A stretch of DNA of 64,000 bases. Source: Mobula hypostoma. Its lineage: Eukaryota. The stretch covers positions 2,170,001 through 2,234,000 of the forward strand of contig NC_086097.1 in assembly GCF_963921235.1 (NCBI RefSeq), read 5' to 3'. Below, piece by piece: positions 10,934 to 59,304 of the stretch; within the stretch, counting starts at the first letter, position 1, and every line of letters starts with the position of its first letter. The translations under genes and the position numbers were made by a program. Under the pieces are notes generated by a model that saw only the letters and a list, made by a program, of their open reading frames with translations, did not search any database and was not told the DNA's origin.

Positions 10934-11019
10934 AAAGTTGCTGCCTGGCCTGCTGCGTTCACCAGCAACTTTGATGTGTGTTGCTTGAATTTCCAGCATC
11001 TGCAGAATTCCTGTTGTTT
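10934..11019 (+). mobile_element. Very short Penelope-derived insertion with a short inverted arm
   Basis: 15-bp TSD TTGTACACAATTATC (10919-10933, 11020-11034). Starts with (ATC)AAAGTTGCTG, the reverse complement of internal CAGCAACTTTGAT. Confidence 0.8.
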
Positions 11020-14000
11020 TTGTACACAATTATCTTCCTTTCAATGAGTCTCGATTTCAGAAGGTTCAGTACAGTGCCTCTTCTTGGAGTCCCCAGAATA
11101 TCAGAATGCACATCAAATTATTCATAGTTTTTTTTTAACAAGTTGAGCTTTGAGACATCATGAGGTGAAAAGCAGCGAGTTAAACCTCTCTGGCAGTGGC
11201 CCCCAGTCAGCCATTCAAAACAACCCGAGTCCTAGATGAACTGAAGATTGAAAGAATTGAGGGAGAGGCCACTGAAAATGTTATGATTTATTTTTTAGTA
11301 TTTTGATGACAGTACGATCATGCACACAGTGAGAAGGAGCACAGTTAGTTTCAAGGCACATGTGAGGGAATTGGTCAAACCTAAGTGATTTCACTGTAGA
11401 GTAGAGCCAGATCTGCAGTTGGTACAGGCTTCACCACAATACAGACTTGACTTCAACACAAGACTTCACTTCAGCCAGCTTCAAACATCTCAGGTAATAC
11501 AAACAGAAAGCCACTATTCACTAACACACAAGTCACTGGCTATGTGCAATTATTTCATTCTCCTTTACACTTGTGTACTGGAAATGACATTAAACAATCT
11601 TGAATTGGTTGAAGTAAATAAGAGGTAGTGTATCCTGTTAACATGCAGCCATGGTCAGTTACATATACAGTTCTATAGGTTACACCAGACATAGGCAACA
11701 GCAGCAAATTATACAGGCTGAATAAAACATCAGGGATCATTTCAAAAATTATGCATGAAACAGAAAATATGCAATAACATAGGTATAATGTACTGGCCAT
11801 GATTATAACAGGATGGTTCACAATAGTTTCTGGATATTGCAAGCACTCTTTGTAAGCCATTGCTCATCAGTATGAACTGAAACTACATCTGAGACCCGAT
11901 TGTGATGAGTGTCTGCTGAACGTAACTTTTACATTACCAAACCAAAGGTCCATTGCATCCAGAGTTGACAATGTGAACGGCAACTCAGTCAGTGTAACTC
12001 CCGTTTGTCTTACATTCCCACGTTAAGACATCTCAATTGTGACCCACGGACTGCTCCCTGTTCACACCAGACGTGAATGGCCATCAGTCCAGATGAACCC
12101 AGGGTGACGGGATCTTGTTTCAATCCCTCTTGCTGTTTAAATTATGGAATCAAGATCTTTGAAATTTCAAACAATTTGTCAGCATGTACAGATTCAGTGG
12201 AACAATTTTTGCACCGGCTGGGGTAAAATACAAGCCCAAGTGGAAATTCTGTTGCTTACTCCCTATAACAATTGGGTAAAAGTGGTAGGCAAGTCAATCT
12301 GTAAGCTTTAGTGTTGATTATCCATGAAACTCTTTAATTCTAATGTCCAAAAGAAGCAGAACAAATGGGAATTGATGACAAGCCTCCATACTGAACAAAA
12401 AGATGGCACCATTAAAGGCGACTGTTTGTGTAAAGCTCTGAAGGGAATCATCAGATAGATCCGTTCAGGACGTCTACAGCTGAAATCCAGTCACAGACAT
12501 GGTACTTCCATAAACAACATTCCAGGAACAGCTTCTTCCCCTCCACTATCAGATTTCTGAATGGACAATGAATCCATCTATATTACCTCACTATTCTTCC
12601 CTCTATTTTTCCACTACTTATTTAATTTTATTTTATTTTTCTATATATATTTCTTATTGCAATTTATAATTTTTATTATGTATTGTAATGTACTGCTACT
12701 ACAAAAGAAAACAAATTTCACAACATATGCCAGTGATACTAAACCCGTTTCTGACTCTGAAAAATCTACAGGACCTGGAGGAAAAGTCAAAGACGTGGTG
12801 AAAAGTTGCTCAAGCCCTCTGACCTGAAACTGAAGCACTATTCTAAAACTTGACAAACATTCATACTGTGGCCCCCATTAGAAAGAGCCAGCATTCGGGG
12901 ACAGCACGTTGTCCATGGAGAGGGTTTGCTGATATTTGTGCAGGAGTCAGTATCCCTCTAGGCTGGGGCAGAGGTCACTGGACAGGCCCTGAGGAGCTGA
13001 TTCCTCTAGCTCACCTGCCCGTTCAATGCTTTTCCTCACTGACCAAGGATTTAGAAATTTCACTCAAGGCGCCATTTGAAATTTGGTTTTGATAATGCAA
13101 CAAGTTGGCATGCTCTGGCTCCATCTCGACATGTTTTCCTCAAAGTCTGCCTCTAAACATTCCAAAACAATACATTTTAAGGGTTACAGTTTAGCATTCC
13201 AAATGCAATATGATAGGATGATTCGTATGGCAACAGTGCCAATGGTCAGTGAGAATGGAGCTTTAATGCCACCCTTAGGAATACAACAGATTACTGATTG
13301 CGTTTGCCTATTGTGCGATTACAGTTTTATCTACAGAAGGTCACAATCACATCTGGGTGAATTTGCACCCCTCACAAAGCTGGGCTAGCTCATTGGGATG
13401 CAGGGTCAGATGTGCATAGAATGAAGTCAGTCACTGAGCCTGCCTCCCGTGTTGGGAGAATAATCAATTCGTGACAGTCACAAAGGAAAAAAAAACAGAA
13501 CACAAAGAAATCCATGTGGGTGTTGAATTAAAGGCTGTCCATTCTGATTTTGAGCCTAACATCTGAAGGGTTTATAGTCAATGATCAAAATGGCCCTGGC
13601 ATCATGTTTCATTGCCCACCATTATCTGCAGCCTTGTACCTCAATACATCACACTGCAACCCTTACCTCAGTGATCACCCTGCAGATCAAAATGGCATCA
13701 AACCACTCATATCCTGGCTCTCCATTAGGGCAGTGAGTCTCATGGGGGGGGGGGGATGTTAGTGAAGGGCACATTGCTACCCCCAACCCCCATCTGCATA
13801 GCTAGTTCCTGGTTGCCATGGTGATGGGTTCTTTAAGGCCTGGAGACTTTATTTGCACCCAGTTCAGCCAAACTATGGGAATGACAATGATTCTGCGTGG
13901 CTCCCATCAGGAAATGCCTGGGTCTCTTACTTCTCTTTCTAGGTGAAAACAGCATTGCTGCTGCCTGATTTTCCAATGGGAAAGATGACTTAATGCTAAT

Positions 14001-14111
14001 GCCAAAAGCAATGATGTTTTACAGCATCAAACACATGTGAAGCCCAGTTTCTAAGGAACAATTATTTTAAATCTATGACAACAAAAAACACAATTCATTT
14101 ATAAACTGCCT

Positions 14112-14117
14112 TTTAAT
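14112..14117 (-). promoter_or_regulatory. Candidate distal ITPK1 poly(A) signal (ATTAAA)
   Basis: Minus strand reads ATTAAA followed about 20 nt later by TGTGTTTTTTGTTGTC, a GU-rich downstream element. A proximal AATAAA lies at about 18773-18778. Confidence 0.3.
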
Positions 14118-15831
14118 CCAATCAACTAACAAAACCATGGTACCCCATGGTGACACAGGAGGGTGCAGATACTGGAGCCTACACCAACCCAATGACAACT
14201 TGAGCTGTTCTGCCACTGTGACTTTGCACGTTGCCTGATGTGCAGTACAGAGCGCTCCGTTGACTGATGCTATCAACTGCTCTGCCAAGAGTAAAACAGA
14301 AAGCATGAAAAACAAAAAAAAACTCAACTAGTGCCATTCAATTAATATTTTACCCTTAATATAACTAGGTGAAATTGCAAATTAAAGTTAAAAATTGATC
14401 ATTTTGAAGGGGGCATATCTGTCTCCTTCCCAGGTCCTCACTATGGCATTCCCCCTCTCCTCTTGGTCACATAGGAAGACTTTGCATGAAAATCAGTTTG
14501 CACTCTCTGCTTTTGCCTTGTTCCATTTTTCAAATGTCTTTGTTCTCCGCTACGTTTAGACTCTTGATTTCTCTTCATCTTTGTCTGCCACCCCCTCTAA
14601 TCAAAATCTGCCCACCGTCACTGTTCACTGCAGAAGTTTTTACATTGGTAATAAATGGTCATTCACTGATACTCTCCTGAACATTGCAACATCTACAAAA
14701 GAAAATATGCTATAAAGCAATCTTTAAGACTCATATCATCTACACATTCTCTATGTCGATTATCTGCATCAAACTGAAACAACTGCTTTTGGGCGAAGGA
14801 CATCCCTTATGCTTCAAGTCAAGGCTGAGCAGTACACAAAGCTCCATTTCTTTTAATCCAAAAAGCAATGGACAGATAAAGCTGCAAAATCTGAACTGGT
14901 CCGATCCGAGTCACCAAACCTATCTGAATCAACCCTCAGAATGAGATTCAAAAGTCTTTCTCTATGGATCAACCAACGAATGTTCTTAAGTAATACTCAG
15001 TTAAACAAGACAAAGTTCTTCATGCCATAAAATTAGCAGAACAAACATAAAATATTTTTGGTTTTATATAAGCAGCAGTTATTAAAATTAGAAAGGTATA
15101 AATAAAAAATGAATACATCCTGGTGTGTAGACTATTAACAATGATGCCACAAAATATATATCACATTTAATACACACTCCAGTCACTATCACACAGCTTA
15201 AAATATTGTGCAATATTATCAGAAAGCTTTAGGCAACGTAATAACAACAGCTGAATGGATGCAATACATTAAATTTAGCTTAATCCTGAACTGCTGAGTT
15301 TCAGATAAGCCAGGAATTTGTTAAAATAGAACAGGTGTATGCTTCCGTACGTGGAAGATACCAGCTTAGGATATTGCCTTTTGCGACAACTGAACACATG
15401 AAGGGAAATAGAATGTGTGTCACAATCTATGCAAAAGTAGATCTTTATAACTGTTGGATTAGACCAGGAGTTCCCAACATGTGGTCCATGAACCCCTTGG
15501 TTAATGGTGAGGCTCATTGGCATAAAAAAAAAAGAGGTTGGGAACCCCCCCTCCCCCCCCCGGATCAGACTGTACAATTGTTATTTTGTTTTGCAGTTTA
15601 ATAATTAATTACCTGCTTGTATTTTTATAACTACTTATATATATATATATGTAACTGTTTAGTATACTTACTAGTGGTTACAGTATGTATATGCAATTGA
15701 TCAGTCTGTCCTCTAATGGTCACAGTGTGTATATACAGTTGTTCAGTCTGTCCTCCAGTGGTTACACTTCTTTGAAAATTCTGGAAGCTTCTCTAGTGCT
15801 GCATGATTTGAATAGGGCTTTCTGATTGGTT

Positions 15832-16067
15832 TAATCTGAAACAAGAGAAAATCTGCAGATGCTGGAAATCCAAGCAACAGACACAAAATGCTGGAGGAAT
15901 TCAGCAGGCCAGGTAGCATCTATGGAAAAAAGTACAGTTGACATTTCAGGCCGAGACCCTTCATCAGGACTCCTAGTAAAGGGTCTTGGCCTGAAACGTT
16001 GATTGTACTGTTTTCCATAGATGCTGCTTGGCCTGCTGAGTTCCTTCAGCATTTTGTGTCTGTGTTG
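15832..16067. mobile_element. Palindromic Penelope-derived insertion
   Basis: Inverted arms meeting at a hammerhead motif; TSD TCTGATTGGTT (15821-15831, 16068-16078). Confidence 0.85.
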
Positions 16068-16766
16068 TCTGATTGGTTGGCTCTTATCTGCAAATTTGAA
16101 TGGAATGTTTGTTTTCTATGGTATAATAAGAGCTAACTATGTGACCACACCATCTTTGCCTCTTCTCTCCCTTTCCCTACTAGACCTCTACAATTACCGC
16201 TTAATAAAACCATGGTGAAGCAACACATTTTGAGCCTCTTTCCTGACTTCCGATAGAACCTTGGACAAAAACCATCAGAATCCAACATCTCTCAACTGAA
16301 CATGTTCCATGTTGCAGCATACACGTTATTCTTCCACAAACCCAGACACCGATGAAAGTTTGATGGACTGCCTGCTGTTATAGAGAAAAGGCTGCTGAGA
16401 GAAGAACACGGTGTAAAGTACAAGGCTATAAATGTCCCATTTCAGTTCTACTTAACCAAACCACAGGCTTAATTTTCCAACTACCCTGCCAAGTTCCTCC
16501 TCACCATGAACCCCTCCCATTCAAAAGGATCTCAGCAAAATAATAACGAAACCTCTCCTCCCCATGTATGAACACAGAATAACCGGCAGTAGTACTGAAA
16601 CCTCCCCTCCCAAACACTCTTCCCACCCCCACCCCACGTACCAACACAAATTAACTAGCAAGGGAAGGGGAAAACACAGTTTTAGTACTGATCTTCCACA
16701 AGGTGCCAGCAACTGGGAAACATGGACTGAAGGAAAATGAGTAATATATTTTGAGAGAGTTTACAT

Positions 16767-17020
16767 CAGTGGTCCCCAACCACCGGGCCGCAGACCAATA
16801 CATTGCTGCAAAGAATGCAATGGTAGTTGGAACGCACCCGGCACATCTTTAAGAAAAAAGCTGAAATAAACGAGTTAATTAATTACATGCCAGCTGGCAC
16901 CTAATTAATTAGCTTGTTTATTTTGGCTTTTTTCTTAAAGATGTGCCGGGTGCGTCCCGACTACCACTGCATTCTTCGCGGCAATGTATCGGTCCGCGGC
17001 CTGGAGGTTGGGGACCACTG
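16767..17020. mobile_element. hAT-type palindromic MITE
   Basis: Ends CAGTGGTCCCCAACC...GGTTGGGGACCACTG; the whole 254 bp is an imperfect inverted repeat. Perfect 8-bp TSD GTTTACAT (16759-16766, 17021-17028). Confidence 0.93.
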
Positions 17021-19310
17021 GTTTACATTATCGAACGTGACCTTATAAAAAATCTGCCAACAATGTGATACAATGAATTTGTTCTGTTATCCATGACTTC
17101 CTTATTTTGGCCTTGTTCAACGGTCAGACAAACTTAAGGATGTTAAACTCCCTAAATTTCTTCTAACAAAATTACTGAGTGAAATTTACTTTGTTCTGAA
17201 TTCCATGAGTGGAATGTGGCAGATTAGATACGACTGTAGGACATAGGAGCAGCACTGGCCTATCCAGTCTGCTCCGCCATTCCAACCTGACTGATACATT
17301 TTCCCTCTCCTGCCTCCTCCTTGTAACCATCAACACCCTGACTAATAAAGATCCTATCAACTTCCACTTTAAATATACTCAATGACTTGGCTTCCACTGC
17401 CGTCTGTGGAAATGAATTCCACAGATTCATCATCCTCTGGATAAAGAAATTCCCCCTCATCTCTGTTCTAAATGGAACTGTACCCTTTAAATGTTGAATT
17501 ATCCATTTATGCCTTTAAGCTGTTGGTGCCAAGGATGGATTGTTAGGGTGGTTTAAAAGTGCCACCTCCTGGTAATATTGCACATTGACATATGATTGTG
17601 AAGCTCCAATTCAATAGAAAACAAAGTAATTAAGTTCCAATGTTCAATGTTTAAATGCTAAATTGCCTTTCAGTAGTCAGACGGAAGACTGAAGCAGTGT
17701 GACTGAGCCTTGCCAATGCTGACAGGACAGTGGGGATATGGGCAGAAAGCCAGCCAACCCTCACTAACTTTCATCCAACAAGGCAAGACAGGAAAAGCAC
17801 TAACATGTCAAATATCCACTGCACTAAGCTATTTACTGTAATCATATTTGGACCTGGTTTCCACGAGGAGGAACAAATACAAATCAATCCCAGGCCAGAA
17901 TCATAGTTAAGAGTTGCCCGAAGATTAGGGTGGTGCAAAGGTGTAGCTTTTCAGCATAATCTCAATAACATATTCCTTCTGCAAATAAATCAAATGAGCT
18001 AGTGCGATTATTAAACCAAAAATATGATGCAGATTTTAACCTGGATGCATTGTCCATTCAGCCTGCAATGTTCGTACACAATGACTTTGGATTTGATTCA
18101 GAAAAGTATAAGTTTTTGATTCATGGTAGTCTGAGGAGCAGTGGATGGAATCCATAAAATAAACATGCCCACTTACCTTTGGTTAAAATCTCCCCCTACT
18201 GTTTCTTTCATATATCAAATGCTCAGAGAAGGAGTTCCAACAACTCCCTTCTGCTTCTTCATCTAAAATTAGCCAAAGACAGGTTCAATGTCGAATGCAA
18301 CAGAAACTCAAAAACGCCCATCAAATACTGAAGCCCTCTCATCCTGGAAAGAACTCGAGACCCCCTACCTATCCTCTGTTTGTAAATGGCAAGTCTGGGA
18401 AACAAACAAAAACATCCAGCAGATTGTACAAAGGAAATTTCCTCATTTCTTCTTCAAGAGAAGACTAGAGTAAAAGTAATGCTGATTTATAACACTGCAT
18501 TGTAAACATCACAAACAGATGAGGCTCTACAGCTATTTTCACTGAGCTTTGTTGAGACTTCGTTTCAAATCAGGAGATGGATGGAAGTATATTGTTAACA
18601 TCTATGAAATTTAATAATAATAAGACCATGAACGATATTACATCATACCTCTTCTTAGAATCTATGTTGTGCATTTTCAGAAGCTATTTATCTTACAAGT
18701 AAATATGCTGCAATCCCCACTTTACCACACTTCAACAGTCACCTCAATTTTACCCTTCTGAAGAGGAGAGCTTTTATTTACCGAGAACTTCTTTTGTCAG
18801 ATAAAGCCCACAGCAAAGTCTTGTCCCAAAACTCAATCAGATTCTTGCAACCTGACAGAACAGATCTCACTGGAGTTTAACCAACCATGGATTTCACAGA
18901 ACTCTCGGAATAGTGTGCAGCTCCTGACAGGACACTGCACAGTAATTTAAAGAGGTTCCTGTGCGCTGACTGAGGTGAACTCATGGGGGAGAGAAATGAA
19001 GTGCCCAAATTAATTGGATGAAAATAAAGGGGTTCCTGTTGAACTGAATTAGCCAATTAAGGTTGACTCCCGTTCCGGTATGGTAAATCCCTAACAAAGC
19101 AATTGTTGCTAATATCAATGCTTCAGAAGAACTAGGTTGAGTATCCAAACTTTGACGTAAACTGATCCTCAAGAAACCTTTCCATACTGTGCTCCAGTCC
19201 CTGCACCAACCTGTGAAGTCATTCAAACATAAGTTGGTCTATTGATTTAAGAAATTGGATCGTGTTGATCCCCAATAATGATTTTTTTTGCGCTTGGATT
19301 TAGTCAGTAG

Positions 19311-21085: not shown

Positions 21086-21089
21086 AACC

Positions 21090-24247: not shown

Positions 24248-24264
24248 ATACAAATATGCCCTTT

Positions 24265-28815: not shown

Positions 28816-30453
28816 GGTGAGGTCTTAGCATCTAACAGCAGGAATAATATCTGGACAGGCTTCTCGAAAGCAGCAAAAGAGAAAACAGTACAAAAAAAAC
28901 TTTTCACCAGTTTCAAATGACTAGTTCTGGAGAAGATTAATGGCCAACAGTCTGTCATCCTGACTCAGGACTATCAATCTAACTAAAGGTCTTCAAGGGC
29001 CCAATGTTGGCAACAATCAGCTACAGAGCGGCGCAGGTTGGATAGGCCCATTAGTGACTGGAATATGCGACAGCTGCCTGACCTAGACCTAGAAACCATG
29101 TTTATCTGGCAAATTTTAAATGCCACTGGGTACGTGCTACTCATGAACATACGATACAGTACAAGAACAGGCCCTTTGGCTCATAAAATAGATGCACCAT
29201 AACTTCCTAACCTTTGAACTCAGTGCCTTGACTAACAAAGGTGATCATGCCATATAGTCATAGTCATACTTTATTGATCCCGGGGGAAATTGGTTAAATG
29301 CCTTCTCAACCCCCTATCAACCTGTGCAGTCACTTTCATGGAGCTCTCAATATCCCTGTTTATCAACACTGTTAAGGGTCTTGCCTTAACAATGAATGCA
29401 CTGTCTCTTTACCTTTAACCTGCCAAGCTGCAACACCTCTCATCTGGCTGGGTTAAAGTCCAGCGGCCATTTCTTTGCCCATATCTGCAAATGATCTTTA
29501 TCCCGATGTACTCTTTATCAGCCTTCCTCACTATCTATAGCACCACCAATCTTCATATCACTGCAAACTTACTAACCCACCCATCTCCGTTTTCATCCAG
29601 GTCATTTATATACACCACAAACAGCAGAGGTCCCAGTACAGATGCCTGCAGAACACCAGTAATCACAGACCTCCAGCCGTTCGACCACCACCCTCTGTCT
29701 TCTACAGGAAGCCAGTTCTGAATCCACATGGGCAATTCACCATGGATCCCATGCATCTTAACCTTCTTGAGCCTCCCATGAAGAACAATGTCAAACATCA
29801 AGAAAGGCACTAAAGCAAGGCCCACAGCCAATTCCCCACTGGCATATAGACACAGGTGTATCCAGCAGCTGTCTGGATCTATCACCCACAAGGCTAATCC
29901 TCGTAAGGGAAGCTCCCCGACAACACAGGCCATTCAACAGCAAGTGCAAGGCCAGCTGACGTGATATGCTTCTGGGCACTGGATCTGAAACCATCTGCGG
30001 GAAGAAGTAGAGTAGGGTGGACAGAGAGTACATCGTCCTTGGGTGCTGTCTAGTGGAGTTTGCACTTCCTTCCTGTCACCATACGGGCTGTTAATTGGCA
30101 GATGAATTGGGCACTGCATATTTATCTCGAGACTGTTAAAATCAGAAGGGAATTAAGGAGGATGTGGGGAGATAAAGTGGGGTTAATGGAGGATGAGTGT
30201 TAATAGGTGACTGAGGGATTTCACCGATGAAGGGCCTCTTCCTCTGAGTCAGAGGTATATCTGCCTCTGACTTTAGCCCTCAGCACTGGCTTTGGAATCC
30301 TGTCTCATGGATGAAAGAAAACATGGAGGCCTACGTGGGAGAGAGTTAGATTGATCTTGGGGTAGGTTAAAGGGTCAGCACAACATTGTGGGCCAAAGGG
30401 CCTGTACTGCACTGTTATGTTCTATGTTTTATGTTCATTAGGTCTTCCACAAA

Positions 30454-31629
30454 GCAACACTCACAACACGCTGGAGGAACTCAGCAGGTCGGGCAGCATC
30501 CGTGGAAACGACCAGTCGACGTTTCGGGCTGGAACCCTTCGTCAGGACTGTAGAGGGAAGGGGCAGAGGCCCTATAAAGAAGGTGGGGGGAGGGTGGGAA
30601 GGAGAAGGCTGGTAGGTTCCAGGTGAAAAACCAGTAAGGGGAAAGATAAAGAGGTAGGAGAAGGGAGGCAGGGAGCTGGTAGGCAGGAAAGGTGAAGAAG
30701 GAATAGGGGAAAACACAATGGGTAATAGAAGGAGGCGGAACCATGAGGGAGGTGGTCGGCAGCTGGGGGAGGGGGCAGAGTGAAATAGGGATAGGGGAAG
30801 GGAGGGGGAGGGAATTACCGGAAGTTGGAGAATTCTACGTTCATAGAAGCTGGAGACTACCTGGACGGTATATGAGGTGTTGCTCCTCCAACCTGAGTTT
30901 GGCCTCATCATGGCAGTAGAGGAGGCCATGTATGGACATATCTGAATGGGAATGGGAAGCTGAGTTGAAGTGGGTGGCTACCGGGAGATCCTGACTGTTG
31001 TGGTGGATGGAGTGGAGGTGCTCGACGAAGCGGTCCCCCAATCTGTGTCGGGTTTCACCGATGTAGAGGAGGCCGCACCGGGAGCACCGGATGCAATAGA
31101 TGATCCCAACAGACTCACAAGTGAAGTGTTGCCTCACCTGGAAGGACTGTTTGGGGCCCTGATTGGTGGCAAGAGCGGAGGTGTAGGGACAGGTGTAGCA
31201 CTTGCACTTACAGGGATAAGTGCCGGGTGGGAGATCCGTGGGGAGGGACGTGCGGATAAGTGAGTCGCGGAGGGACCGATCCCTGCGGAAAGCGGAGAGG
31301 GGTGGAGAGGGAAAGATGTGCTTAGTGGTGGGGTCCTGTTGAAGGTGGCGGAAGTTGCGGAGGATAATGTGCTGGATCCGGAGGCTGGTGGGGTGGTAGG
31401 TGAGGACAAGGGGAACTCTGTCCCTGTTGTGGTGGCGGGAGGATGGGGTGAGGGCCGAAGTGCGGGAAATGGAGGAGATGCGGGTGAGGGCATCATTGAT
31501 CACCGTAGAAGGGAAACCACGATCTTTAAAGAAAGAGGATATTTGAGATGTCCTGGAACAGAAAGCCTCATTCTCGGAGCAGATGCAGAGGAGACGGAGG
31601 AACTGGGAATAGGGAATGGCATTTCTGCA
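30454..31629 (-). mobile_element. 5'-truncated Penelope-like retroelement (RT C-terminus, GIY-YIG endonuclease, 3' repeat with hammerhead motif)
   Basis: ORF 31632-30841 contains AIPYSQFLRL and GIIYCIRCSRCGLLYIGETRHRLGDRFVEH (GIY-YIG). Followed by a pyrimidine-rich tail and a hammerhead motif at 30513-30550. Confidence 0.92.
30513..30550 (-). ncRNA. Minimal type I hammerhead ribozyme motif (Penelope-associated)
   Basis: Minus strand CAGTC-CTGACGA-A-GGG-TTCCAG-CCC-GAAAC-GTC-GACTG. Has 5-bp stem I, CUGANGA and GAAA cores, 3-bp stem II, palindromic ACGU in place of stem III, and a GUC cleavage triplet. Confidence 0.8.
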
Positions 31630-32076
31630 CATGCCCCAGCATTCTGCACTTCTCTCACTTCACAAGACTTTGCCAGTGCAGAAACATCATTAGGGTTAAA
31701 CCTATCCACATAGATGGTCTTTCACAAATTTGATGTAAGAGATCAAACCCCACAGGCAATCTTTGAAAGAATGCACATTTTTATCCTCATGGACTGTAAG
31801 CTCCATTCTAAGTACTTCAAAATCTCGCCAAAGGGCCGGATGCTTATAGCCAACTTTCTTTCACGGCCTACCACTGAAAATTCACATGACACAAGCACAC
31901 AGAGGTCCTGACAGCAACACCCAAAACTTCCATTAGCCACTCCACTTGTGAGCTTCGAAGTACAAATTATACAACCCTGAGATTCGTCTACTTACAGGCA
32001 GCCGTAAAAACAAGGAAGTTTATTAATTAGGTGGGGTTAGCCATGGAAAAGGAACAAACCACCCAGTTTATCCTAT

Positions 32077-32242
32077 GCAACACACATCAAAGTTGCTGGT
32101 GAACGCAGCAGGCCAGGCAGCATCTCTAGGAAGAGGTACAGTTGACATTTCGGGCCGAGATGCTGCCTAGCCTGCTGCATTCACCAGCAACTTTTATGTG
32201 TGTTGTTTGAAATTCCAGCATCTGCAGATTTCCTCGGGTTTG
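32077..32242. mobile_element. Palindromic Penelope-derived insertion
   Basis: Inverted arms; TSD CAGTTTATCCT (32064-32074, 32243-32253). Confidence 0.85.
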
Positions 32243-38992: not shown

Positions 38993-39122
38993 CAAAATAC
39001 TCTGCAGATGCTGGGGTCAAAGCAACACGCACAACACGCTGGAGGAACTCAGCAGGTCGGGAAGCATCCATGGAAACGATCAGTCACGGATGCTGCCCGA
39101 CTTGCTGAGTTCCTCCAGCGTG
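38993..39122. mobile_element. Palindromic Penelope-derived insertion
   Basis: Inverted arms; 16-bp TSD TTCTACATGT(C/T)TGACA with one mismatch (38977-38992, 39123-39138). Confidence 0.85.
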
Positions 39123-40644
39123 TTCTACATGTTTGACAGCATTTACTGCTATGGTATTTTATTGAGGTGCTTACTTTCATTACATAAACACAGGAGATTC
39201 TGCAGATGTTGGATGACTTGAGCAACATGCACACACAAAGTGCTGGAAGAACTGAGCACGTCAGGCAGCATCTACGGAGGGGAATAAACAGACGATAAAA
39301 TCTGAAATTTTCACCAGGAATTAAATGGAAGCCGCCAGAATAAGAAGATGGGGAGAAGGGAAGGAGGGCAAGCTGGCAGGTGATAGTTGAAGCCAGGTGA
39401 GGGGGAAGATAGGTGAATCGGGGAGGGGAGATGAATGTAGAAGCTTGGAGGAGATAGATGGAAGAGGAAAAAGGTTGAAGACAGAATCTTCTTCAGCCCT
39501 TCACCTCTTCCAACACAAAATCAACACAAAGAGTTTTGCATTTATTGATTTAAGTCCAGAAGATATGAAAAGCCACAGTTTAAGCACACTGCCTTGTACA
39601 GCTTCTTTAAATCAAAGGACAGGAGTTACCAAGGCTAAAACAAAGGCCAAACAGCACTGTTCTAGAGAAAAGTAGCCTTAAAAACTTTCTGTTAAATGTT
39701 TAGAAACATAGCCAGTTCAAATCCAGTACCAACAATGTTTATTCAAACAGCCAGAACTATTACAAAGCCTTTGCCTAACTGTTGCTTTTATTGCAGATTG
39801 GTATCTTTGGAGAGGATGTTAACACTGAAGAATGTGGATTAAAAAGATTGCAAGAAAAAAGCAGGTCAATAACCAAGATAGAGACAGCTCTGAGGCAATG
39901 ATTAAAATGGTAAGAGTAATAGATCTCACAAACAGAACACAGTGTAATACGAGTTATTAGATCAACACACAGCATGACTGGGAAAGGAGCTGATGACTAT
40001 ATGAACTCTCTGTTACATTGTTTAGAAACATAGCCAATCCAAACCTGATGCCACCTCGTACACAGAACTCACACCAGTCCTCATCGAGGAGTCGGGGTGG
40101 AAAAAGTGAGCAGCTTTAAGACCATGGTTGTTAACCTCTTAGTAGATTTATCCTGAGCACAAGACATTTATGCAATCACAAAGGTAGTATGCCAACTCTC
40201 TACTTCATTAGGAGTTTGTAGAGATTTGGTACATCACCAAAAACTCTTGTAAATTCCACAGACGTACCATGGAGAGCATTCTGACTAGTTACATCACGGG
40301 CAGGTAAGGAATCTCCACACTCTGACTGGTTACATCATGGGCAGGTAAGCAGTCTCCAGTGCTCAGGATCACAAGGAGGGCTGTCGACTCCGCCGGTTCC
40401 ATCATGGGCACAACCCTCCCTCCCTCCCTGCCATCGAGGCCATCTTCAAGAAGCAATGCCTCTAGAAGGTGGCCTACACTATTAAAGACAGTCACCAACT
40501 GGGACACATCATCTCCGCATTACTACCAGCAGCAGCCTGAAGACCCACACTCAGTTTCCTCCCCTTTGTCATCTGATTTCTTAATGGTCCATGAAGTATT
40601 TATTTTCTAACTCAGAGTAACTTTTATGCCTTGCATTGTACTGC

Positions 40645-44890: not shown

Positions 44891-47865
44891 AGGAACTTCC
44901 TCTCCGTCTCCATCCCGTCAAGAACTTCAGGCTTTCAATAAGTCACACTCCAGTGATGACAGAGTGAGCCCATCCCACCTTTTGCCAGCAGTTAACCTAC
45001 TATTCTATGCACTGGTCCAGGAAACCGCCACCAGCTACTCGCAAAGTAAGTGTGAAGGTGGACTTGAAGCATCGAACTGAGAGTCAGCTAGACTCAAGGG
45101 TCCAAAAATCCTCCTCCTGCTTTTGTTCCAAATATACTTATCACATTAATGACACCAATAAAAGAATGTTTCTCAGCAAGTCGGGAAGCACTGATGGAAG
45201 AGAATAAGCAGTTGATGTTTCTCAGAATGAAGGGTCCTGGCTCAAAACAGCAACTGTTTATTCCCCTCCATGGATGCAACTTGAATTTCTGAGTTCTTCC
45301 AGCATTTTGTGTGTTACTCCGGATTTCCAGCATCTGCAAAATCTCCTATGTTTAAGAGTGCCTCTCTGTCCTTTAGTTTATTCAGTGTCAAGCCGAATGT
45401 TGCCTAGGCACAATACTTACTTATTTATGTTGCCTTTTCATCTTTTGGACTGTGCATTCTGTGCTAACTTTACAAAGAGACCCATATTTGGAACTTCCGC
45501 AGCCAAGTCAGAGAACAGACACTGAGCTGTAACTGGCTCCAAAATGCTTCATCCACCCATCCAGAAGACTTGCAGAATTGGCATGTTTAGTCAGCCTGAA
45601 CAGATCTTCACTGCTGACGAAGGACAGCGTGGACCGGGTGTCTGGGTACTTCAAGCCTGACTGGAGTTGTAAGAACAAGCCACGGATTTCAAGCTGGACA
45701 GCATCCAATTAGCTACAGACGGAGGCTGCATTTTGGCCACGATCTCACTACAGCTACAGAACTAGCAGAATTTTGAGAAGTATCTCTGTAACAGTCCCGA
45801 ATTCTGACGTTCCTGGAGTCCTGCCGAAAAAATTCACAAAGGGCCATGATCTCAGTGACTCTGAGGAACTGGAGTCCCTAAAGGGCAAACAGCTTTGAAG
45901 CAACTCTCAAGTCTAAAAACAGAATGCCAGTGCCATAACAAGATGCACTTATACAGAAATTCTAACCAAGCAAAGAGCAGTTGTCATTGATAGCAAGGGG
46001 CCATGAGTGGAAGAGAAGTAACTTGTTGTTCTAATTATGTCGAGTCCCAGTAAGGCTGTATGTAGAATAACATGCACTGATCTTGACTTCCTAAGCCAAA
46101 GAAGGGCACATGTATATTTGTGGGATCACAATGACCAATTAACCTACTAACAGGTATGTCTGTGGACTGTGCTGGGAAAACTGAACACTCAGAGGGACCC
46201 CACAAGCTCACAGGGAGAATGTACGAACTCCTTGAAGACCGCAGAACTGTACTCTGAACTCCTACGCCCCAAGCTGTAACAGTGTCGTGCGAACCACCAT
46301 GCTACCGTGGCGCCCTCAATTAGGGCATTCAAAAGGGTAGAGATGGAGCTGCCATTTTTCCTGCCATTGGTGCCTAACATCAAGGGTCAGAGGTTCAAAA
46401 TAAAGAGTGAGTCATTCAAAAAGAAGGAAACAAAATTTCTTCTTCTCGAACATAGGAATTCTCGACTCAAGAGGACTGAGAAGATTCAGTCAACCATCTA
46501 TATCCAAGATGGAGGTCCTGAAGAAGAGTCTCGGCCTGAAACATCGACTGTTTATTCATCTCAGTAGATGCTGCCTGACCTGCTGAGTTTCTCCAGCATT
46601 TTGTTTGTGTTGCTTGGGATTTCCAGCATCTGCAGAATCTCATGTCCAGGATAGAGATTATTGTACATTGAGGGAGTTAAAGCTCAGTGCAGGAAAGTAG
46701 CACCAGTGTAGGTCAGCTAAATCTTGCTGAGCATGAACAAGGGCAGCAAGGCTGTCAGCTGTCTCGCATTCACTGTTCAGAAGCTGCAGGTGTCATTAGC
46801 TCTGTGAATGTTTCTGTTACTTGGGTTAATAAAGGGAGCAGTAGCAATTTGTGGACAGTTCTGTTGGGAGACAATGCGCCTGATGACTTAGTCCAGTGAT
46901 GGAGAAATATTCAGTACTCCCTAAGTTGCAAGGGTTGATGGGTAACCATCAAATAAGGCACATGCTGAGGACAATATTGTGAATCAGACTACATCAGACC
47001 TGCCACATGCTGCAAATCTCTCCCAATTTTCACTTCCACTGCCTTCAGTGAAGAGACCTCCAGTTGGCTCATTCGACAGTGGAAGAGTTACCTCACTAGT
47101 GACGTGAGGAACGTGAGGTTTGCTTGCGACTGTCAATGGTTAAATGCAAATTTCTAACAGTCTATTCCTCTATGAATCAACACTCTCTTCACTTGTCTCT
47201 GCAATTATCCATCCCGTGACTAATGCTGAAAGATAATTCACCAGTTTAAAGTTGTCGGAGACGCTGACATGAGACATGAATACCTGCCTCTCAAGTGAGG
47301 GCACTGCAGCTCGGCAGTTTGACACTGGGAATAGTGGATCAAAGGAAACATTGTTAACCCAGACATGAGATGATTTACTGTCTAGATACCTATGCAAGAT
47401 TATTATGCAGAGAATTATGGCTTTAATTTAAATGGACAATGAAAAGGTTTCAATATCTCATGGTCCATGTTGGATTCACTAGAGGGTAAAATTGTCACTT
47501 TCCTTGAACTTTAGCTTTCCTATGCTAGCTAGTATTCGTATATAATCAGAAGAATGAGGGGTGACCTCATTGAAAAGCATTGAATAGTGAAAGGCCTTGG
47601 TAGAGTGGATGTGGAGAGGATCTTTTCTATGGTGGGAGAGTCTGAGGACACAGCCTCAGAATAGAGGGGCTTCCCTTTATAACAGAGATGAAGAGGAATT
47701 CCTTCATCCAGAGAGTGGTGAATCTGTGGAATTCATTGTCACAGGCAGCTGTGGAGACCAAGTCTTTATGTATATTTAAGGCAGAAGTTGATAAGATTTT
47801 TAATTGTTCAGGGATACAGGGAGAAGGCAGAAGAATGGGGCTGAAAGGAAAATTGGATCAGCCAT

Positions 47866-49140
47866 GATGGCTCTTCACACAGCCTGAGACCACCTGGACA
47901 ATACAAACACCTACGTCAGGATGCTGATCATAGACTAGAGCTCAGCATTTAACACCATCATTCCCACAATCCTGATTGAGAAGCTGCAGAACCTGGGCCT
48001 CTGTACCTCCCTCTGCAGAACCTGGGCCTCTGTACCTCCCTCTGCAGAACCTGGGCCTCTGTACCTCCCTCTGCAGTCAGATCCTCGACTTCCTAACTGG
48101 AAGACCACAGTCTGTGTGGATTGGTGATAACATCTCCTCCTCGCTCACAATCAACACTGGTGCACCTCAGGGGTGTGTGCTTAGCCCACTGCTCTACTCT
48201 CTATATCCCCATGACTGTGTGGCTAGGCATAACTCAAATACCATCTATAAACTTGCTGATGATACAACCATTGTTGGTAGAATCTCAGGTGGTGACAAGA
48301 GGGCTACAGGAGTGAGATATGCCAACTAGTGGAGTGGTGCTGCAGCAACAACCTGGCACTCAACGTCAGTAAGACAAAAGAGCTGATTGTGGACTTCAGG
48401 AAGGGTAAGATGAAGGAACACATACCAATCCTCATAGAGGGATCAGAAGTGGAGAGAGTGAGCAGTTTCAAGTTCCTGGGTGTCAAGATCTCTGACGATC
48501 TAACCTGTTCCCAACATATCGATGTAGTTATAAAGAAAGCAAGACAGTGACTATTATTTCATTAGGAGTTTGAAGAGATTTGGTATGTCAACAAATACAC
48601 TCAAAAACTTCTATAGATGTACTGTGGAGAGCCTACTGACAGGTTGCATCACTGACTGGTACGGAGGGGATCCTGCACAGGACCGAAAGAAGCTGCAGAA
48701 GGTTGTAAATCTAGTCAGCTCCATCTTGGGTACTAGCCCACAAAGTACCCAGGCCATCTTCAGGGAGCGGTGTCTCAGAAAGGCATATCCATTATTAAGG
48801 ACCTCCAGCACCCAGGGCATGCCCTTTTCTCACTGTTATCATCAGGTAGGAGATACAGAAGCCTGAAGGCACACACTCAGCGATTCAGAAACAACTTCTT
48901 CCCCTCTGCCATCTGATTCCAAAATGGACATTGAACCCATGAACACTACCTCACTTTTTAAAATATATATTACTTCTGTTTTTGCACTATTTTAAGCTAT
49001 TCAATATACGTATACTGTAACTGGTTTACTTATTTATTTGTTTTTACTTTTTTTTCTTCTATATTATGCATTGCATTGAACTGCTGCTGCTAAGTTAACA
49101 AATTTTGTGATACATGCTGGTGATAATAAACCTGATTCTA
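47866..49140 (+). mobile_element. Rex1/Babar-like LINE fragment inserted into a CR1 3' end (47548-47865 / 49141-49200)
   Basis: [24 protein letters not shown] and LNVSKTKELIVDFRK motifs. The CR1 tail GGATCAGCCATGAT|AAATGGTGGAGCAGAC is split around it. Confidence 0.85.
47984..48076 (+). repeat. 29-bp tandem triplication inside a LINE
   Basis: CTGCAGAACCTGGGCCTCTGTACCTCCCT x3 plus CTGCAG. Confidence 0.95.
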
Positions 49141-49365
49141 AAATGGTGGAGCAGACTTGATGGGCAATATGGCCTAATTCTGCTCCTATATCTTATGACC
49201 TTACAATCACCGATATACATATAATTGCTAGGAGATTTTTTCCAGTAATTGTAGTATTTTTCTAGAAGTTTCTTAGGTTTTTTTTGTAGCCGGTGTCATG
49301 CCTTGAGTCTGGCTACTTTAAAGGTTGATTGTTATCACCGATGTCTCGTTATTATTTTAGTATTA

Positions 49366-50410
49366 TTATCTCACTCCATCCTCCTGCCACCCCACTAGGA
49401 ATAGGGTTCCCCTGGTCCTCACCTACCACCCCACCAGCCTCCGGGTCCAACATATTATTCTCCGTAATTTCCGCCACCTCCAATGGGATCCCACCACTAA
49501 GCACATCTTTCCCTCATCCCCCTCTGCTTTCCGCAGGGATCACTCCCTACGTGACTCCCTTGTCCATTCGTACCCCCCATCCCTCCCCACTGATCTCCCT
49601 CCTGGCACTTATCCGTGTAAGCGGAACAAGTGCTACACATACCCTTACACTTCCTCCCTTACCACCATTCAGGGCCCCAGACAGTCCTTCCAGGTGAGGC
49701 GACACTTCACCTGTGAGTTGGCTGGGGTGATATACTGTGTCTGGTGCTCCCGATGTGGCCTTCTATATATTGGCGAGACCCGACGCAGACTGGGAGACCG
49801 CTTTGCTGAACATCTACGCTCTGTCCGCCACAGAAAGCAGGATCTCCCAGTGGCCACACATTTTAATTCCACATCCCATTCTGACATGTCTATCCACAGC
49901 CTCCTCTACTGTAAAGATGAAGCCACACTCAGGTTGGAGGAACAACACCTTATATTCTGTCTGGGTAGCCTCCAACCTGATGGAATGAACATTGACTTCT
50001 CAAACTTCAGCTAATGCCCCACCTCCCCCTCTTACCCCATCTGTTATTTATTTATATACACACATTCTTTCTCTCTCTCTCTCTCCTTTTTCTCCTTCTG
50101 TCCCTCTCACCATACCCCTTGCCCATCCTCTGGTTTCCCCCCCACTTGTCTTTCTCCCTGGGCCTCCTGTCCCATGATCCTCTTGTATCCCTTTTGCCAA
50201 TCACCTGTCCAGCTCTTGGCTCCATCCCTCCCCCTCCTGTCTTCTCCTATCATTTTGGATCTCCCCCTCTCCCTCCCACTTTCAAATCTCTTACTAACTC
50301 TTCCTTCAGTTAGTCCTGACGAAGGGTCTCGGCCCGAAACGTCGACTGTACCTCTTCCTAGAGATGCTGCCTGGCCTGCTGCGTTCACCAGCAACTTTGA
50401 TGTGTGTTGC
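49366..50410 (+). mobile_element. 5'-truncated Penelope-like retroelement with 17-bp TSD
   Basis: Encodes GVIYCVWCSRCGLLYIGETRRRLGDRFAEH. Flanked by TTATTATTTTAGTATTA at 49349-49365 and 50411-50427. Confidence 0.93.
50312..50347 (+). ncRNA. Minimal type I hammerhead ribozyme motif (Penelope-associated)
   Basis: AGTC-CTGACGA-A-GGG-TCTCGG-CCC-GAAAC-GTC-GACT. Predicted cleavage after C50343. Confidence 0.8.
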
Positions 50411-50849
50411 TTATTATTTTAGTATTAGTTTTGGACTAGACCATCACAGCTTCTTTGTTCTTTGTCCTTTTCTTTGTTTATTGTTTGTAACACTTAAGAA
50501 ACAGCAGTAAGCAACAAGCTTTTTTTTTTACTCATTTATGATTTCTGAAGCAGCTCTGGATCACAAAATCACTTGGATCCAACGCTCACTTATAACAGAT
50601 AGTCCCACCTCCAAACTAATGGATACCACTAGGTTTGTTCATTCTTTCATACACAAATCTCACCTTGGAAGAAATAAATTCAATACTTTCATATAAGCGG
50701 ATGATACAAACATTATCAAGATTCATTTGAATATAATTAGTCACTTTCAACTTGAAAATGGTGCATTCAATAGAATGGGATTTCGTCCAAATAAATAGTT
50801 TTTCACAGTGGTTGACTGACGATATACAAAGCCTTGTTTTATTGCTTAC

Positions 50850-52040: not shown

Positions 52041-52044
52041 CGCG

Positions 52045-54427: not shown

Positions 54428-54526
54428 TCAATGGGAATGTCAGCTTGTGCTTCTTCAGCTCTGCCATCATGTCCTCACCACACTGGTTAGCGAGCTCCAT
54501 AAATGGAGGTGAACAAATACGGTCAT
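54428..54526 (-). CDS. ITPK1: ITPK1 coding exon (99 nt)
   Basis: Acceptor ttgttgcAG, donor GTAAGT. Translates (D)DRICSPPFMELANQCGEDMMAELKKHKLTFPL(I), versus recalled human DDRICSPPFMELTSLCGDDTMRLLEKNGLTFPFI. Confidence 0.95.
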
Positions 54527-55026
54527 CTGCAACAAGAGATGAATACAGCAAGAGTTAGCAAACGTTGTATAGAGCCTGCCCTTCAATAAACATAGACAGA
54601 GAATAGTACAGCACAGCAACACGCCCTCCAGATCACAATGTTGTGCTGAACCAAATAAATTAGTAATCAAATGGCAACTCATCTCTTCGAATGCCCATAT
54701 CTTTCCATTTTCCTCACATTCATGTGCCTATCTAATGTCTCTTAAAAGTCCCTATTATACCTGCCTCTACCACCACTCCAGGCAGCACATTACACCTCTT
54801 GTGCAGCCTTTCCAAAACCTCAACAACCTTCTTATAATGGGGTGACCATACTGTATGTAATACTCCAGATGTGGCCTAACTAGAGTTTTATTAAGCTCAG
54901 TATGGCGGCCCACTAGGTTAGTAGACAAGCATAACAATACAAGCAAGCATAAGAAATTTATATACAAGGAAAAATGACTATTATACAGTCGAATAGTTAC
55001 TCAAAACCACCACATATTATGTTCCA

Positions 55027-55300
55027 GCAACACACATCAAAGTTGCTGGTGAACGCAGCAGGCCAGGCAGCAGCTCTAGGAAGAGGTACAGTCGACGTTT
55101 CAGGCCGAGACCCTTCGTCAGGACTAGATGAAGGGTCTCGGCCTGAAACGTCGACTGTATTCAGTTAATCCTGACGAAGGGTCTCAGCCTGAAACATCGA
55201 CTGTACCTCTTCCTAGAGATGCTGCCTAGCCTGCTGCGTTCACCAGCAACTTTGATGTGTGTTGCTTGAATTTCCAGCATCTGCAGAATTCCTGCTGTTT
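55027..55300. mobile_element. Palindromic Penelope-derived insertion with three hammerhead-like motifs
   Basis: Inverted arms; 15-bp TSD ACATATTATGTTCCA (55012-55026, 55301-55315). One motif on - (55090-55125) and two in tandem on + (about 55127-55157 and 55167-55203). Confidence 0.88.
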
Positions 55301-55454
55301 ACATATTATGTTCCACTCAAAATGTTGACCTCAGGCAGGTGTGACTATAAAACTGAGAGTCAATAGAAAAAGATTGATCTGTAAAGGGAATAGCAAAGGC
55401 ACTTATATATCCTTAAAGTAAAATAATCATTTAAAAAATTAGAGAAGAATTGAG

Positions 55455-57584: not shown

Positions 57585-58216
57585 TAGCAAGAGGATTCGA
57601 GTACAGGAGCAGGGAGGTACTACTGCAGTTGTACAAGGCCTTGGTGAGACCACACCTGGAGTATTGTGTGCAGTTTTGGTCCCCTAATCTGAGGAAAGAC
57701 ATCCTTGCCATAGAGGGAGTACAAAGAAGGTTCACCAGATTGATTCCTGGGATGGCAGGACTTTCATATGATGAAAGACTGGATCAACTCTAGGCTTATA
57801 CTTGTTGGAATTTAGAAGATTGAGGGGGGATCTGATTGAAACGTATAAAATCCTAAAGGGATTGGACAGGCTAGATGCAGGAAGATTGTTCCCGATGTTG
57901 GGGAAGTCCAGAACGAGGAGTCACAGTTTGAGGATAGAGGGGAAGCCTTTTAGGACTGAGATTAGGAAAAACTTCTTCACACAGAGAGTGGTGAATCTGT
58001 GGAATTCTCTGCCATAGGAAACAGTTGAGGCCAGTTCATTGGCTATATTTAAGAGGGAGTTAGATATGGCCCTTGTGGCTAAAGGGATCAGGGGGTATGG
58101 AGGGAAGGCTGGTACAGGGTTCTGAGTTGGATGATCAGCCATGATCATACTGAATGGTGGTGCAGTCTCGAAGGGCCGAATGGCCTACTCCTGCACCTAT
58201 TTTCTATGTTTCTATG
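57585..58216 (+). mobile_element. CR1-clade LINE 3' fragment, relatively intact
   Basis: RGFEYRSREVLLQLYKALVRPHLEYCVQFWSP; tail TTTCTATGTTTCTATG. Confidence 0.93.
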
Positions 58217-59121
58217 CATTACTCTTCCCACTACTTATTGAATGAATAACAACAGCATGAAATGATTTATTCATGTGCCAATGTCTATCTTTAACAGACT
58301 CATCTCATCTACTTCTCTCCTTCCTCCTTTCCGTGCCTTGCAGCATATCAGGCAGCAACCTTACCGCTTCCTTCGCAACTTTGTCCATTTTTTTCATAAG
58401 GCCGGGTTGCTAGATCGACACTCAATCCTGTACAGGTGGAAGTCATGCAATGAGCCGGCCGGATTGAGAAAAACAACTGAGAAGGTGAGGCGAAGAGTCC
58501 TTGAAAGGACACCCATAGTTGTGTTCATTTCAGTGTTGGGGTGAGTGAAGTTGCGGGGTAATAACCGTTCCTGAACCTGCTGGTGTGGGTCCTGAGGCTC
58601 CTGTACCTCCTTCCTGATGACAGCAGCAAGAAAAGAGCAAGCGCTGGATGGTGAGGGTCCCAAATCATTGATGGTGCTCTCTTGCGACTAGTCACTGCAC
58701 ATCTATAGAAGTTTGTCAAAGTTTCAGATGACATGCTTCTACACAAACTTCTAAGGAAGTAGAGATGCTGCCATGCTTTCTTTGTGATGACACTCACGTG
58801 CTGGGGCAGGCCAGCTCCTCTGAAATGATAGCCCCAAGCAATTTAATGTTGCTGATCCTCTCCACATCTGATCCTCTGATGTGGGCTGACTCCTGGACCT
58901 CTGCTTTCCTCCTACAGTGATCAATAATCAGCTCCTTGACTGAAGAAATCAGTCAATTTCTTCATACAGTAGTGGTCCCAAATAATTACAATTACTTATT
59001 TCTGATTGTAATGGCTAGCTGTGTGTGAATGTGTGTCTGCATCGACGTGACGGACTGCAGAAAGTTTCTGTCTTCAAAAGCGAGGCTTAAAGAGGGCTCT
59101 AACTAAAGCATTAAATATCAT

Positions 59122-59304
59122 CAAAGTTGCTGGTGAACGCAGCAGGCCAGGCAGCATCTCTAGGAAGAGGTACAGTCACGAAGGGTCTCGGCCCGAAACA
59201 TCGACTGTACCTCTTCCTAGAGATGCTGCCTGCCCTGCTGCGTTCACCAGCAACTTTGATGTGTGTTGCTTGAATTTCCAGCATCTGCAGAATTCCTGTT
59301 GTTT
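59122..59304. mobile_element. Palindromic Penelope-derived insertion
   Basis: Inverted arms; 14-bp TSD GCATTAAATATCAT (59108-59121, 59305-59318). Confidence 0.88.

What the first reader, a model, noticed from the sequence alone, without database searches (positions are those of the whole stretch)
10934..59304. Family of short head-to-head palindromic Penelope-derived insertions, each with its own long TSD
Seen: six loci (10934-11019, 15832-16067, 32077-32242, 38993-39122, 55027-55300, 59122-59304; an older one near 45170-45350). Each consists only of the Penelope 3' repeat present twice in inverted orientation, with both 3' ends pointing outward. Each is bounded by a different 11-16 bp direct repeat, so each palindrome inserted as one event. 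Arm lengths and central junctions differ at every locus, and the arms match two Penelope subfamilies present in this window (49366-50410 and 30454-31629). Known: Penelope-like elements carry hammerhead motifs and can show inverted terminal repeats. Inference: these are not copies of one fixed MITE. They look like repeated products of reverse transcription primed from both nicked target strands on short 3'-repeat RNAs, leaving a hairpin-forming insertion roughly every 10 kb here.
Basis: partly seen in the sequence, partly recalled or inferred. Interest (0 to 1): 0.75.

Follow-up and report, generated by a model that had tools for sequence, protein, structure and literature searches.

The report
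Penelope retroelement head-to-head insertion scars
The short palindromes are real, each made in a single insertion event by a Penelope-like jumping gene, but this inverted-pair layout with an extra tail on one side is already a described hallmark of that family.

Summary
All six loci, and the older seventh, are two inverted copies of a Penelope-like element (PLE) 3' end with the 3' ends pointing outward. Each is flanked by its own 11-16 bp direct repeat.

In the wider sample, 16 of 20 such units have a direct repeat of at least 13 bp; 7 of 400 shifted controls reach 11 bp. A contig from a related organism skips one unit plus one repeat copy, which is an empty site.

These are not a fixed MITE. 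Arm lengths run from about 10 nt to over 700 nt, and the central junctions differ.

The layout is already in print: an inverted 5'-truncated copy with a 30-40 bp "tail" at one end (Arkhipova 2013; Craig 2021). A PLE protein also cleaves and extends both target strands in vitro (Frangieh 2024). This scan noted similar shark elements before, in other genomes.

What I add:
- 17 of 18 units not selected for a tail carry the 35-nt tail on exactly one arm.
- Where TSD overlap was measured (16 units), the tail end shows only chance-level homology to the target.
- The other arm starts at or upstream of the second start site, often with 1-8 nt of microhomology.
- Either arm can reach further 5'.

Best reading: one integration primed from both nicks. 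Fold-back self-priming is the main rival. Verdict: new members of a known kind, modest interest.

The parts
10934..11019 (.). Unit 1. A 6-11 nt inverted, tail-less mini-arm (10934-~10943) joined through shared TGCTG to a sense arm that ends in the 35-nt tail. TSD 10919-10933 and 11020-11034, 15/15.
15832..16067 (.). Unit 2, third subfamily (B). The left arm carries the tail. Both arms end near the 5' edge of the hammerhead. TSD TCTGATTGGTT at 15821-15831 and 16068-16078.
32077..32242 (.). Unit 3, subfamily A. The left arm has no tail and the right arm has the tail. A 4-nt GAGA overlap lies at the centre. TSD 32064-32076 and 32243-32255, 13 bp with 1 mismatch.
38993..39122. Unit 4, subfamily C (matches 30450-30660). 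The left arm has the tail, and its inner end lies at the predicted hammerhead cut site (read by eye; the aligner stopped 8 nt short). The right arm has no tail. TSD 38977-38992 and 39123-39138, 16 bp with 1 mismatch.
45171..45347 (.). Old, decayed head-to-head unit (about 73% identity to subfamily B). The right arm has the tail. TSD doubtful.
55027..55300 (.). Unit 5, subfamily A. Tail-less left arm, then a 33-nt fold-back copy of that arm's inner end (55127-55159), then a right arm with the tail. TSD 55012-55026 and 55301-55315, 15/15.
59122..59304 (.). Unit 6, subfamily A, arms 58/59 identical. The tail-less left arm ends exactly at the predicted hammerhead cut site. The right arm has the tail. 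TSD 59108-59121 and 59305-59318, 14/14. A contig of a related organism skips 59108-59305.
49361..50412 (+). 5'-truncated Penelope-like copy, subfamily A: GIY-YIG ORF end, 3' UTR and minimal hammerhead. It ends at the proximal start site, with no tail.
30450..31659 (-). 5'-truncated Penelope-like copy, subfamily C: GIY-YIG ORF end, 3' UTR and minimal hammerhead, no tail.

Best explanation
Each unit is the scar of one integration by a Penelope-like retroelement (PLE).

Proposed steps:
1. The element's GIY-YIG nuclease makes nicks on the two strands that are staggered by 11-17 bp (13-17 bp outside the window).
2. One 3'-OH primes reverse transcription at the distal start site of the RNA. This arm carries the 35-nt tail. 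Its end is precise and shows no homology to the target.
3. The other strand's 3'-OH primes at or upstream of the proximal start site, 35 nt further in. This arm has no tail and often shows 1-8 nt of microhomology to the target.
4. Both cDNAs copy the same source sequence and stop at variable points. Many stop near the 5' edge of the hammerhead, and a few stop at its cut site.
5. The two cDNAs are joined head to head by template jumping or short self-complementary microhomology.
6. Repair then duplicates the target site.

Shown: single-event origin, the one-tail rule, the end precision, the variable junctions.
Inferred: two primed cDNAs, the joining step, the identity of the template.
For: - One TSD of 13 bp or more brackets the whole unit in 16 of 20 units; 7 of 400 shifted controls reach 11 bp. 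All six extra units also have TSDs (read by eye).
- Empty site: X11 record 14 lies on 58890-59107 and on 59766-59942. Its 149 middle letters fit ~59306-59455. It therefore skips unit 6 plus one TSD copy, and also a neighbouring SINE.
- One-tail rule: 17 of 18 units not selected for a tail have exactly one tail (7 in the window, 4 of 5 random, 6 of 6 in L051-L056). None has two tails and one has none. In addition, 16 of 16 visible partners of tail-selected copies lack the tail. With independent arms the chance of this is at most about 1e-4.
- Tail ends lie at r=99-101 in subfamily A. They overlap the TSD by 1 nt or more in 4 of 16 units, which is the chance level.
- Tail-less ends lie at r=46-69. 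They overlap the TSD in 10 of 15 units.
- The tail-less arm reaches further 5' than the tail arm in 9 of 23 units. The tail arm reaches further in about 8, and they are equal in 6. A copy made by folding back the tail cDNA cannot contain sequence that the tail arm lacks.
- Both arms share rare variants in 3 of 12 pairs, against 2.8% of 1810 control comparisons.
- Published in vitro work: a PLE protein cleaves and extends both strands and uses two start sites that bracket the tail (PMC11167929, main text read).
Against: - No molecule was observed; the two cDNAs are inferred from scars.
- Frangieh et al. saw no difference in start site between the strands, so the strict one-tail rule is not predicted by the published data.
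- The inner ends of the two arms lie within 15 nt of each other in about half of the units. Several centres hold small fold-back copies (33 nt in unit 5, CCCTTCG in L043). This is what self-priming predicts.
- Some complex centres recur (CTAACGAAGGG in 4 of the first 50 loci), which hints that some pre-formed palindromes were copied again.
- L039 has inverted flanks and no TSD, so DNA-level palindrome formation also happens.
- The junction analysis rests on 22-26 units.
Confidence: 0.62

Rival explanations
1. Self-priming (fold-back). One cDNA is primed at one nick. Its 3' end snaps back on itself and copies the first arm. The end is then joined to the other side of the break by microhomology.
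For: - Proposed for PLE inverted repeats with palindromic junctions in PMC3846280 (discussion passage read).
- The inner ends of the two arms lie within 15 nt in about 8 of 16 units.
- Fold-back fillers occur at centres.
- Centres often sit at self-complementary sites such as GTAC (17 of the first 50 loci).
- It would explain microhomology at the tail-less end and the one-tail rule.
- L039 has inverted flanks.
Against: - In 9 of 23 units the tail-less arm contains sequence 5' of where the tail arm ends, by up to 131 nt. A copy of the tail arm cannot hold that sequence.
- Many centres are blunt or have only 0-1 nt between the arms, which leaves no hairpin loop.
Confidence: 0.2
2. Re-copying of ready-made palindromes. 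A few palindromic master copies are transcribed and retrotransposed in one pass. The tail-less outer end is then ordinary 5' truncation.
For: - Variable tail-less ends with microhomology look like 5' junctions.
- Some complex centres recur: CTAACGAAGGG x4 and CTCAGTTAG x3 among the first 50 loci.
- A local cluster on C40 shares one junction.
Against: - More than 30 different centres occur among the first 50 loci of one class.
- All 16 analysed junctions differ.
- Tail-less ends cluster at r=64-69, the start site also used by solo copies, rather than being spread like truncations.
Confidence: 0.08
3. Two independent insertions, the second landing next to or inside the first, or later DNA-level inversion and duplication.
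For: Nested PLE-into-PLE insertions do occur (L007, and the L043 host copy). L039 shows a palindrome that extends into its flanks.
Against: - One TSD brackets the whole unit in 16 of 20, and there are no internal TSDs.
- The empty site lacks the whole unit.
- 12 head-to-head against 0 tail-to-tail pairs.
- The one-tail rule.
Confidence: 0.04

Closest known systems
Typical Penelope-like element insertion structure: pLTR, adjacent inverted 5'-truncated copy, one-sided 30-40 bp tail, TSD (Arkhipova et al. 2013, PMC3846280; Craig et al. 2021, PMC8557442)
   Same: Head-to-head inverted copy, a tail at one end only, one TSD around the whole insert, palindromes or microhomology at the inverted junction, a minimal hammerhead in the repeated part.
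   Different: Here both copies are often cut down to 10-150 nt, so nothing but two 3' ends remains. TSDs are longer (11-17 bp, against 8-10 bp in the rotifer examples). The host is a probable cartilaginous fish.
In-vitro mechanism of the Anolis Poseidon PLE (Frangieh et al. 2024, PMC11167929)
   Same: Both target strands are cleaved and extended. Two internal start sites bracket the tail. Initiation occurs without homology to the target, as at the tail ends here.
   Different: The paper reports no strand difference in start-site use and, in the main text I read, does not link the two sites to inverted pairs. The scars here show strict one-tail asymmetry and microhomology at the tail-less end.
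L1 twin priming (Ostertag and Kazazian 2001; recalled, not read here)
   Same: The second nick's 3' end primes on the RNA through microhomology, giving an inverted segment within a single TSD.
   Different: In L1 the two segments come from adjacent, non-overlapping parts of one RNA. Here both arms cover the same 3' region.
MITEs
   Same: Short, hairpin-forming, dispersed, flanked by direct repeats.
   Different: No fixed termini, no fixed junction, arms unequal and asymmetric (tail), TSD length varies, and the sequence derives from a retroelement 3' end.
Animal non-LTR retrozymes and dual minimal hammerheads on opposite strands (Cervera and de la Pena 2014, PMC4209133; Li et al. 2026 preprint, passages read)
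   Same: Non-autonomous pLTR-derived units with minimal hammerheads. Schistosoma also has paired motifs 100-700 bp apart on opposite strands.
   Different: Retrozymes are head-to-tail tandems. These units are head-to-head single insertions.

Membership tests
Penelope-like elements (endonuclease-containing) | C-terminal GIY-YIG endonuclease in the single ORF | tested here: met
   Pfam PF01541 scores 23.6 bits (cut-off 22.6) for 49361-50011 and 21.0 bits, just under the cut-off, for 30844-31659. The nearest Atlas clusters carry GIY-YIG.
Penelope-like elements (endonuclease-containing) | PLE-type (telomerase-like) reverse transcriptase | not tested
   The window copies are 5'-truncated upstream of the endonuclease. 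No full-length copy was fetched.
Penelope-like elements (endonuclease-containing) | Minimal type I hammerhead in the repeated 3'/pLTR part | tested here: inconclusive
   By eye, all three subfamilies have the CUGAYGA core, a 4-bp helix II with an unpaired A, GAAAC, palindromic ACGU, and a 4-5 bp helix I. Rfam gave no hammerhead hit. Cleavage was not tested.
Penelope-like elements (endonuclease-containing) | Optional 30-40 bp tail at one end of the insert | tested here: met
   A 35-nt tail is on exactly one arm in 17 of 18 units not selected for a tail.
Penelope-like elements (endonuclease-containing) | Adjacent inverted 5'-truncated copy, with the whole insert flanked by one TSD | tested here: met
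MITE (DNA-transposon derivative) | Fixed terminal inverted repeats, constant internal sequence, fixed-length TSD | tested here: not met
   Arm lengths run from about 10 nt to over 700 nt. All 16 analysed junctions differ. The outer ends are asymmetric. TSDs are 11-17 bp.
L1-type twin-priming inversion | Inverted and direct segments come from non-overlapping parts of one RNA | tested here: not met
   The arms overlap over 50-110 nt of the same 3' region.
Animal retrozymes | Head-to-tail tandem repeats, each with a hammerhead | tested here: not met
   Tandem adjacency occurs once against 10 head-to-head in 264 kb.

The most novel reading that the evidence does not exclude
The strict one-tail rule records how PLEs integrate. 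The two 3'-OH ends of one staggered break are extended on the same RNA, each from one of its two initiation sites 35 nt apart. That is why exactly one arm gets the tail.

Many templates would be short RNAs that begin at the 5' edge of the hammerhead. These could come from an internal pLTR promoter, as shown for Drosophila Penelope (PMC2377424, passages read). About 1% would begin at the ribozyme cut site.

In the main text of PMC11167929 and in searches I found no paper linking the two start sites to inverted pairs.
Probability: 0.3. Interest if true: 0.6.

Novelty: new member of a known kind. Interest (0 to 1): 0.33.

Why it matters
PLE integration is still poorly understood. The authors of the 2021 and 2024 papers call the tandem and inverted structures unexplained.

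This genome holds a very large natural record of single integration events. A rough estimate is 28,000-200,000 units, extrapolated from 5 in 200 kb. The record shows a simple rule (one tail per unit) together with readable junctions, and this could discriminate between integration models without any bench work.

On the practical side, these scars look like MITEs or miRNA hairpins to annotation tools; Rfam's miRNA models score them below threshold. They may also break short-read assemblies.

Tried and rejected
- **Rfam.** At gathering and at E-value thresholds it found no hammerhead, only sub-threshold miRNA-like hairpin matches.
- **Hammerhead cut site as the usual 5' end of templates.** Two window arms end exactly there, but genome-wide the class is small.
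  - After the 18-mer ending at the cut site, a non-consensus pyrimidine follows in 764 copies, against 40,580 intact copies.
  - A control position 3 nt away gives 456.
  - Most of the 4,816 "+A" cases are CpG decay; only 117 are not followed by A.
  - I keep this as a minor class, not a rule.
- **Arm-to-arm identity against other copies.** This was uninformative.
- **Cluster of inner ends at the hammerhead's 5' edge.** There are 973 symmetric loci there, against 372 and 67 in two control windows. This is an enrichment, but partly explained by local dyad symmetry. An RNA 5' end there is not shown.
- **X10 record 4.** It stops 1 nt before the left TSD of unit 5, but its remaining 188 letters were not listed. 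This is suggestive only.
- **Laid contigs in general.** Most were swamped by repeats.
- **More random genome stretches.** These could not be had.
- **Earlier notes by sequence.** No look-alike was found.
Full report
**What is there.**
Each consists of two inverted copies of one repeat with the 3' ends pointing outward (repeat finder; blastn).

The repeat is the 3' end of 5'-truncated Penelope-like copies at 49361-50412 (+) and 30450-31659 (-). Their ORF ends carry a GIY-YIG domain, scoring 23.6 and 21.0 bits against a Pfam cut-off of 22.6 (Atlas neighbours).

By eye the repeat holds a minimal type I hammerhead: CUGAYGA, a 4-bp helix II with an unpaired A, GAAAC, a palindromic ACGU, and a 4-5 bp helix I. 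It matches the description in Cervera and de la Pena 2014 (PMC4209133, first part of the text read). Rfam does not recognise it.

Positions are counted as r, where r=0 is the first base after the predicted cut (GTC|GAC).

Unit 2 belongs to a third subfamily that has no long copy in the window.

**More than chance, and genome-wide.**
The assembly is 3.48 Gb. Earlier notes of this scan call it a cartilaginous fish; I did not check this.

I had three samples:
- 29 loci around the best matches to a tail-bearing arm;
- 20 random 10-kb stretches;
- six short pairs picked from a 19-mer list.

Further stretches were not available, so junction-level statistics rest on 22-26 units.

Orientation counts:
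- In window plus random DNA (264 kb), head-to-head adjacency with a gap of 60 nt or less occurs 10 times, tail-to-tail once, tandem once.
- Among the first 100 hits of a 19-mer there are 12 head-to-head pairs within 3 kb, 0 tail-to-tail and 1 same-strand.
- That 18-mer occurs about 46,000 times in the genome.

The random sample holds 5 units per 200 kb. This gives very roughly 28,000-200,000 units genome-wide, so the window (about 1 per 10 kb) is richer than average.

**One event per unit.**
A direct repeat of 13-17 bp with at most 1 mismatch brackets the whole unit in 16 of 20 units. Of 400 shifted controls, 7 reach 11 bp. The four units without a repeat are old, truncated, or have inverted flanks (L039).

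A contig of a related organism provides an empty site. X11 record 14 (567 nt) lies on 58890-59107 and on 59766-59942. Differences at the same depth lie at 59381-59432, and the 149 middle letters fit ~59306-59455. The contig therefore skips 59108-59305, which is unit 6 plus one TSD copy. It also skips a tRNA-derived SINE that has its own TSD, AACAGGTAGGA. The middle piece was not listed explicitly, so this is a strong inference rather than a read-out.

**Not a MITE.**
- Arms range from about 10 nt (unit 1) to more than 700 nt (L003, L006, L030).
- All 16 analysed centres differ: 9 have 0-4 nt of overlap (one has a single extra base) and 7 have 2-25 nt of filler, often small fold-back copies.
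- Of 973 loci in which both arms reach r=-30, the first 50 show more than 30 different centres.

**Already known.**
Arkhipova et al. 2013 describe the "typical Penelope structure". It has an adjacent inverted pLTR, one TSD around everything, and a 31-bp tail on one of the inverted repeats. They propose self-priming as the cause (PMC3846280, passages read). Craig et al. [quoted passage not shown]

Frangieh et al. 2024 show that an Anolis PLE protein cleaves and extends both strands. It starts reverse transcription at two internal sites that bracket the tail, without homology to the target (PMC11167929, main text read).

Cervera and de la Pena noted paired minimal hammerheads on opposite strands in Schistosoma. 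This scan flagged similar shark elements before, in other genomes, and judged them a known kind.

**What the scars add.**
1. **One-tail rule.** 17 of 18 units not selected for a tail have exactly one tail, none has two, and one has none. In addition, 16 of 16 visible partners of tail-selected copies lack the tail. Independent use of the two start sites would give this with probability of at most about 1e-4.
2. **Tail ends.** They lie at r=99-101 in subfamily A and overlap the TSD at the chance rate (4 of 16).
3. **Tail-less ends.** They lie at r=46-69, mostly at 64-69, the site that solo copies also use. They overlap the TSD by 1-8 nt in 10 of 15 units.
4. **Which arm is longer.** The tail-less arm reaches further 5' in 9 of 23 units, the tail arm in about 8, and they are equal in 6.
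5. **Shared rare variants.** Both arms share rare variants in 3 of 12 pairs, against 2.8% of 1810 control comparisons.
6. **Where inner ends cluster.** They cluster at the 5' edge of the hammerhead: 973 symmetric loci, against 372 and 67 in two control windows. They also cluster at self-complementary sites such as GTAC.
7. **Cut-site ends.** Ends exactly at the ribozyme cut site exist but are a minor class, about 1% of copies.

**Mechanism.**
Point 4 excludes simple fold-back of the tail cDNA for about 40% of units. Points 1, 2 and 5 fit two primed cDNAs that copy one source, one from each start site. This is my best reading (0.62).

Fold-back self-priming remains a serious rival for the symmetric units (0.2). 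Re-copying of ready-made palindromes may add a few, since some complex centres recur. Two independent insertions are excluded by the TSDs and the empty site.

**Verdict.**
These are new members of a known kind. Interest is modest, raised a little by the one-tail rule and by the size of this natural record.

Noticed in passing
window 16755-17032: An unrelated palindromic element with 139-nt arms (86% complementary), termini CAGTGGTCCCC...GGGGACCACTG, and an 8-bp direct repeat GTTTACAT on both sides. It looks like a hAT-type MITE.
   Followed up: partly
window 59456-59765: A tRNA-derived SINE on the minus strand, flanked by the direct repeat AACAGGTAGGA. A contig of a related organism (X11 record 14) lacks it.
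   Followed up: partly
L007 ~1490-1640; L043 3011-3266; L006 ~2240: Independent PLE insertions, or arm junctions, at one site of the PLE's own ORF (antisense caggtgaagtRtcacctcacctgg). The site contains a 6-bp inverted repeat and may be a target or pausing hot spot.
   Followed up: no
L039 8860-9296: A head-to-head pair in which neither arm has a tail. At least 30 nt of its flanks are inverted repeats rather than a TSD. This is a palindrome that extends into host DNA, as from DNA-level fold-back.
   Followed up: no
G000:C9:189969008-189969368: A tandem array, spaced 37-111 nt apart, of an internally deleted antisense piece of the same repeat (GTACAGTC joined to AGCAGGCCAGGCAGCAT). It is satellite-like amplification.
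   Followed up: no
G000:C40:1.55-4.73 Mb: Seven copies share one junction, in which the arm ends at the hammerhead cut site and joins to CAGTTRGTCCTGACG. This suggests local amplification of one unit.
   Followed up: no
window 47976-48866: A LINE-type reverse transcriptase fragment (..[11 protein letters not shown]..) lies just upstream of the PLE copy. It is not part of the PLE.
   Followed up: no
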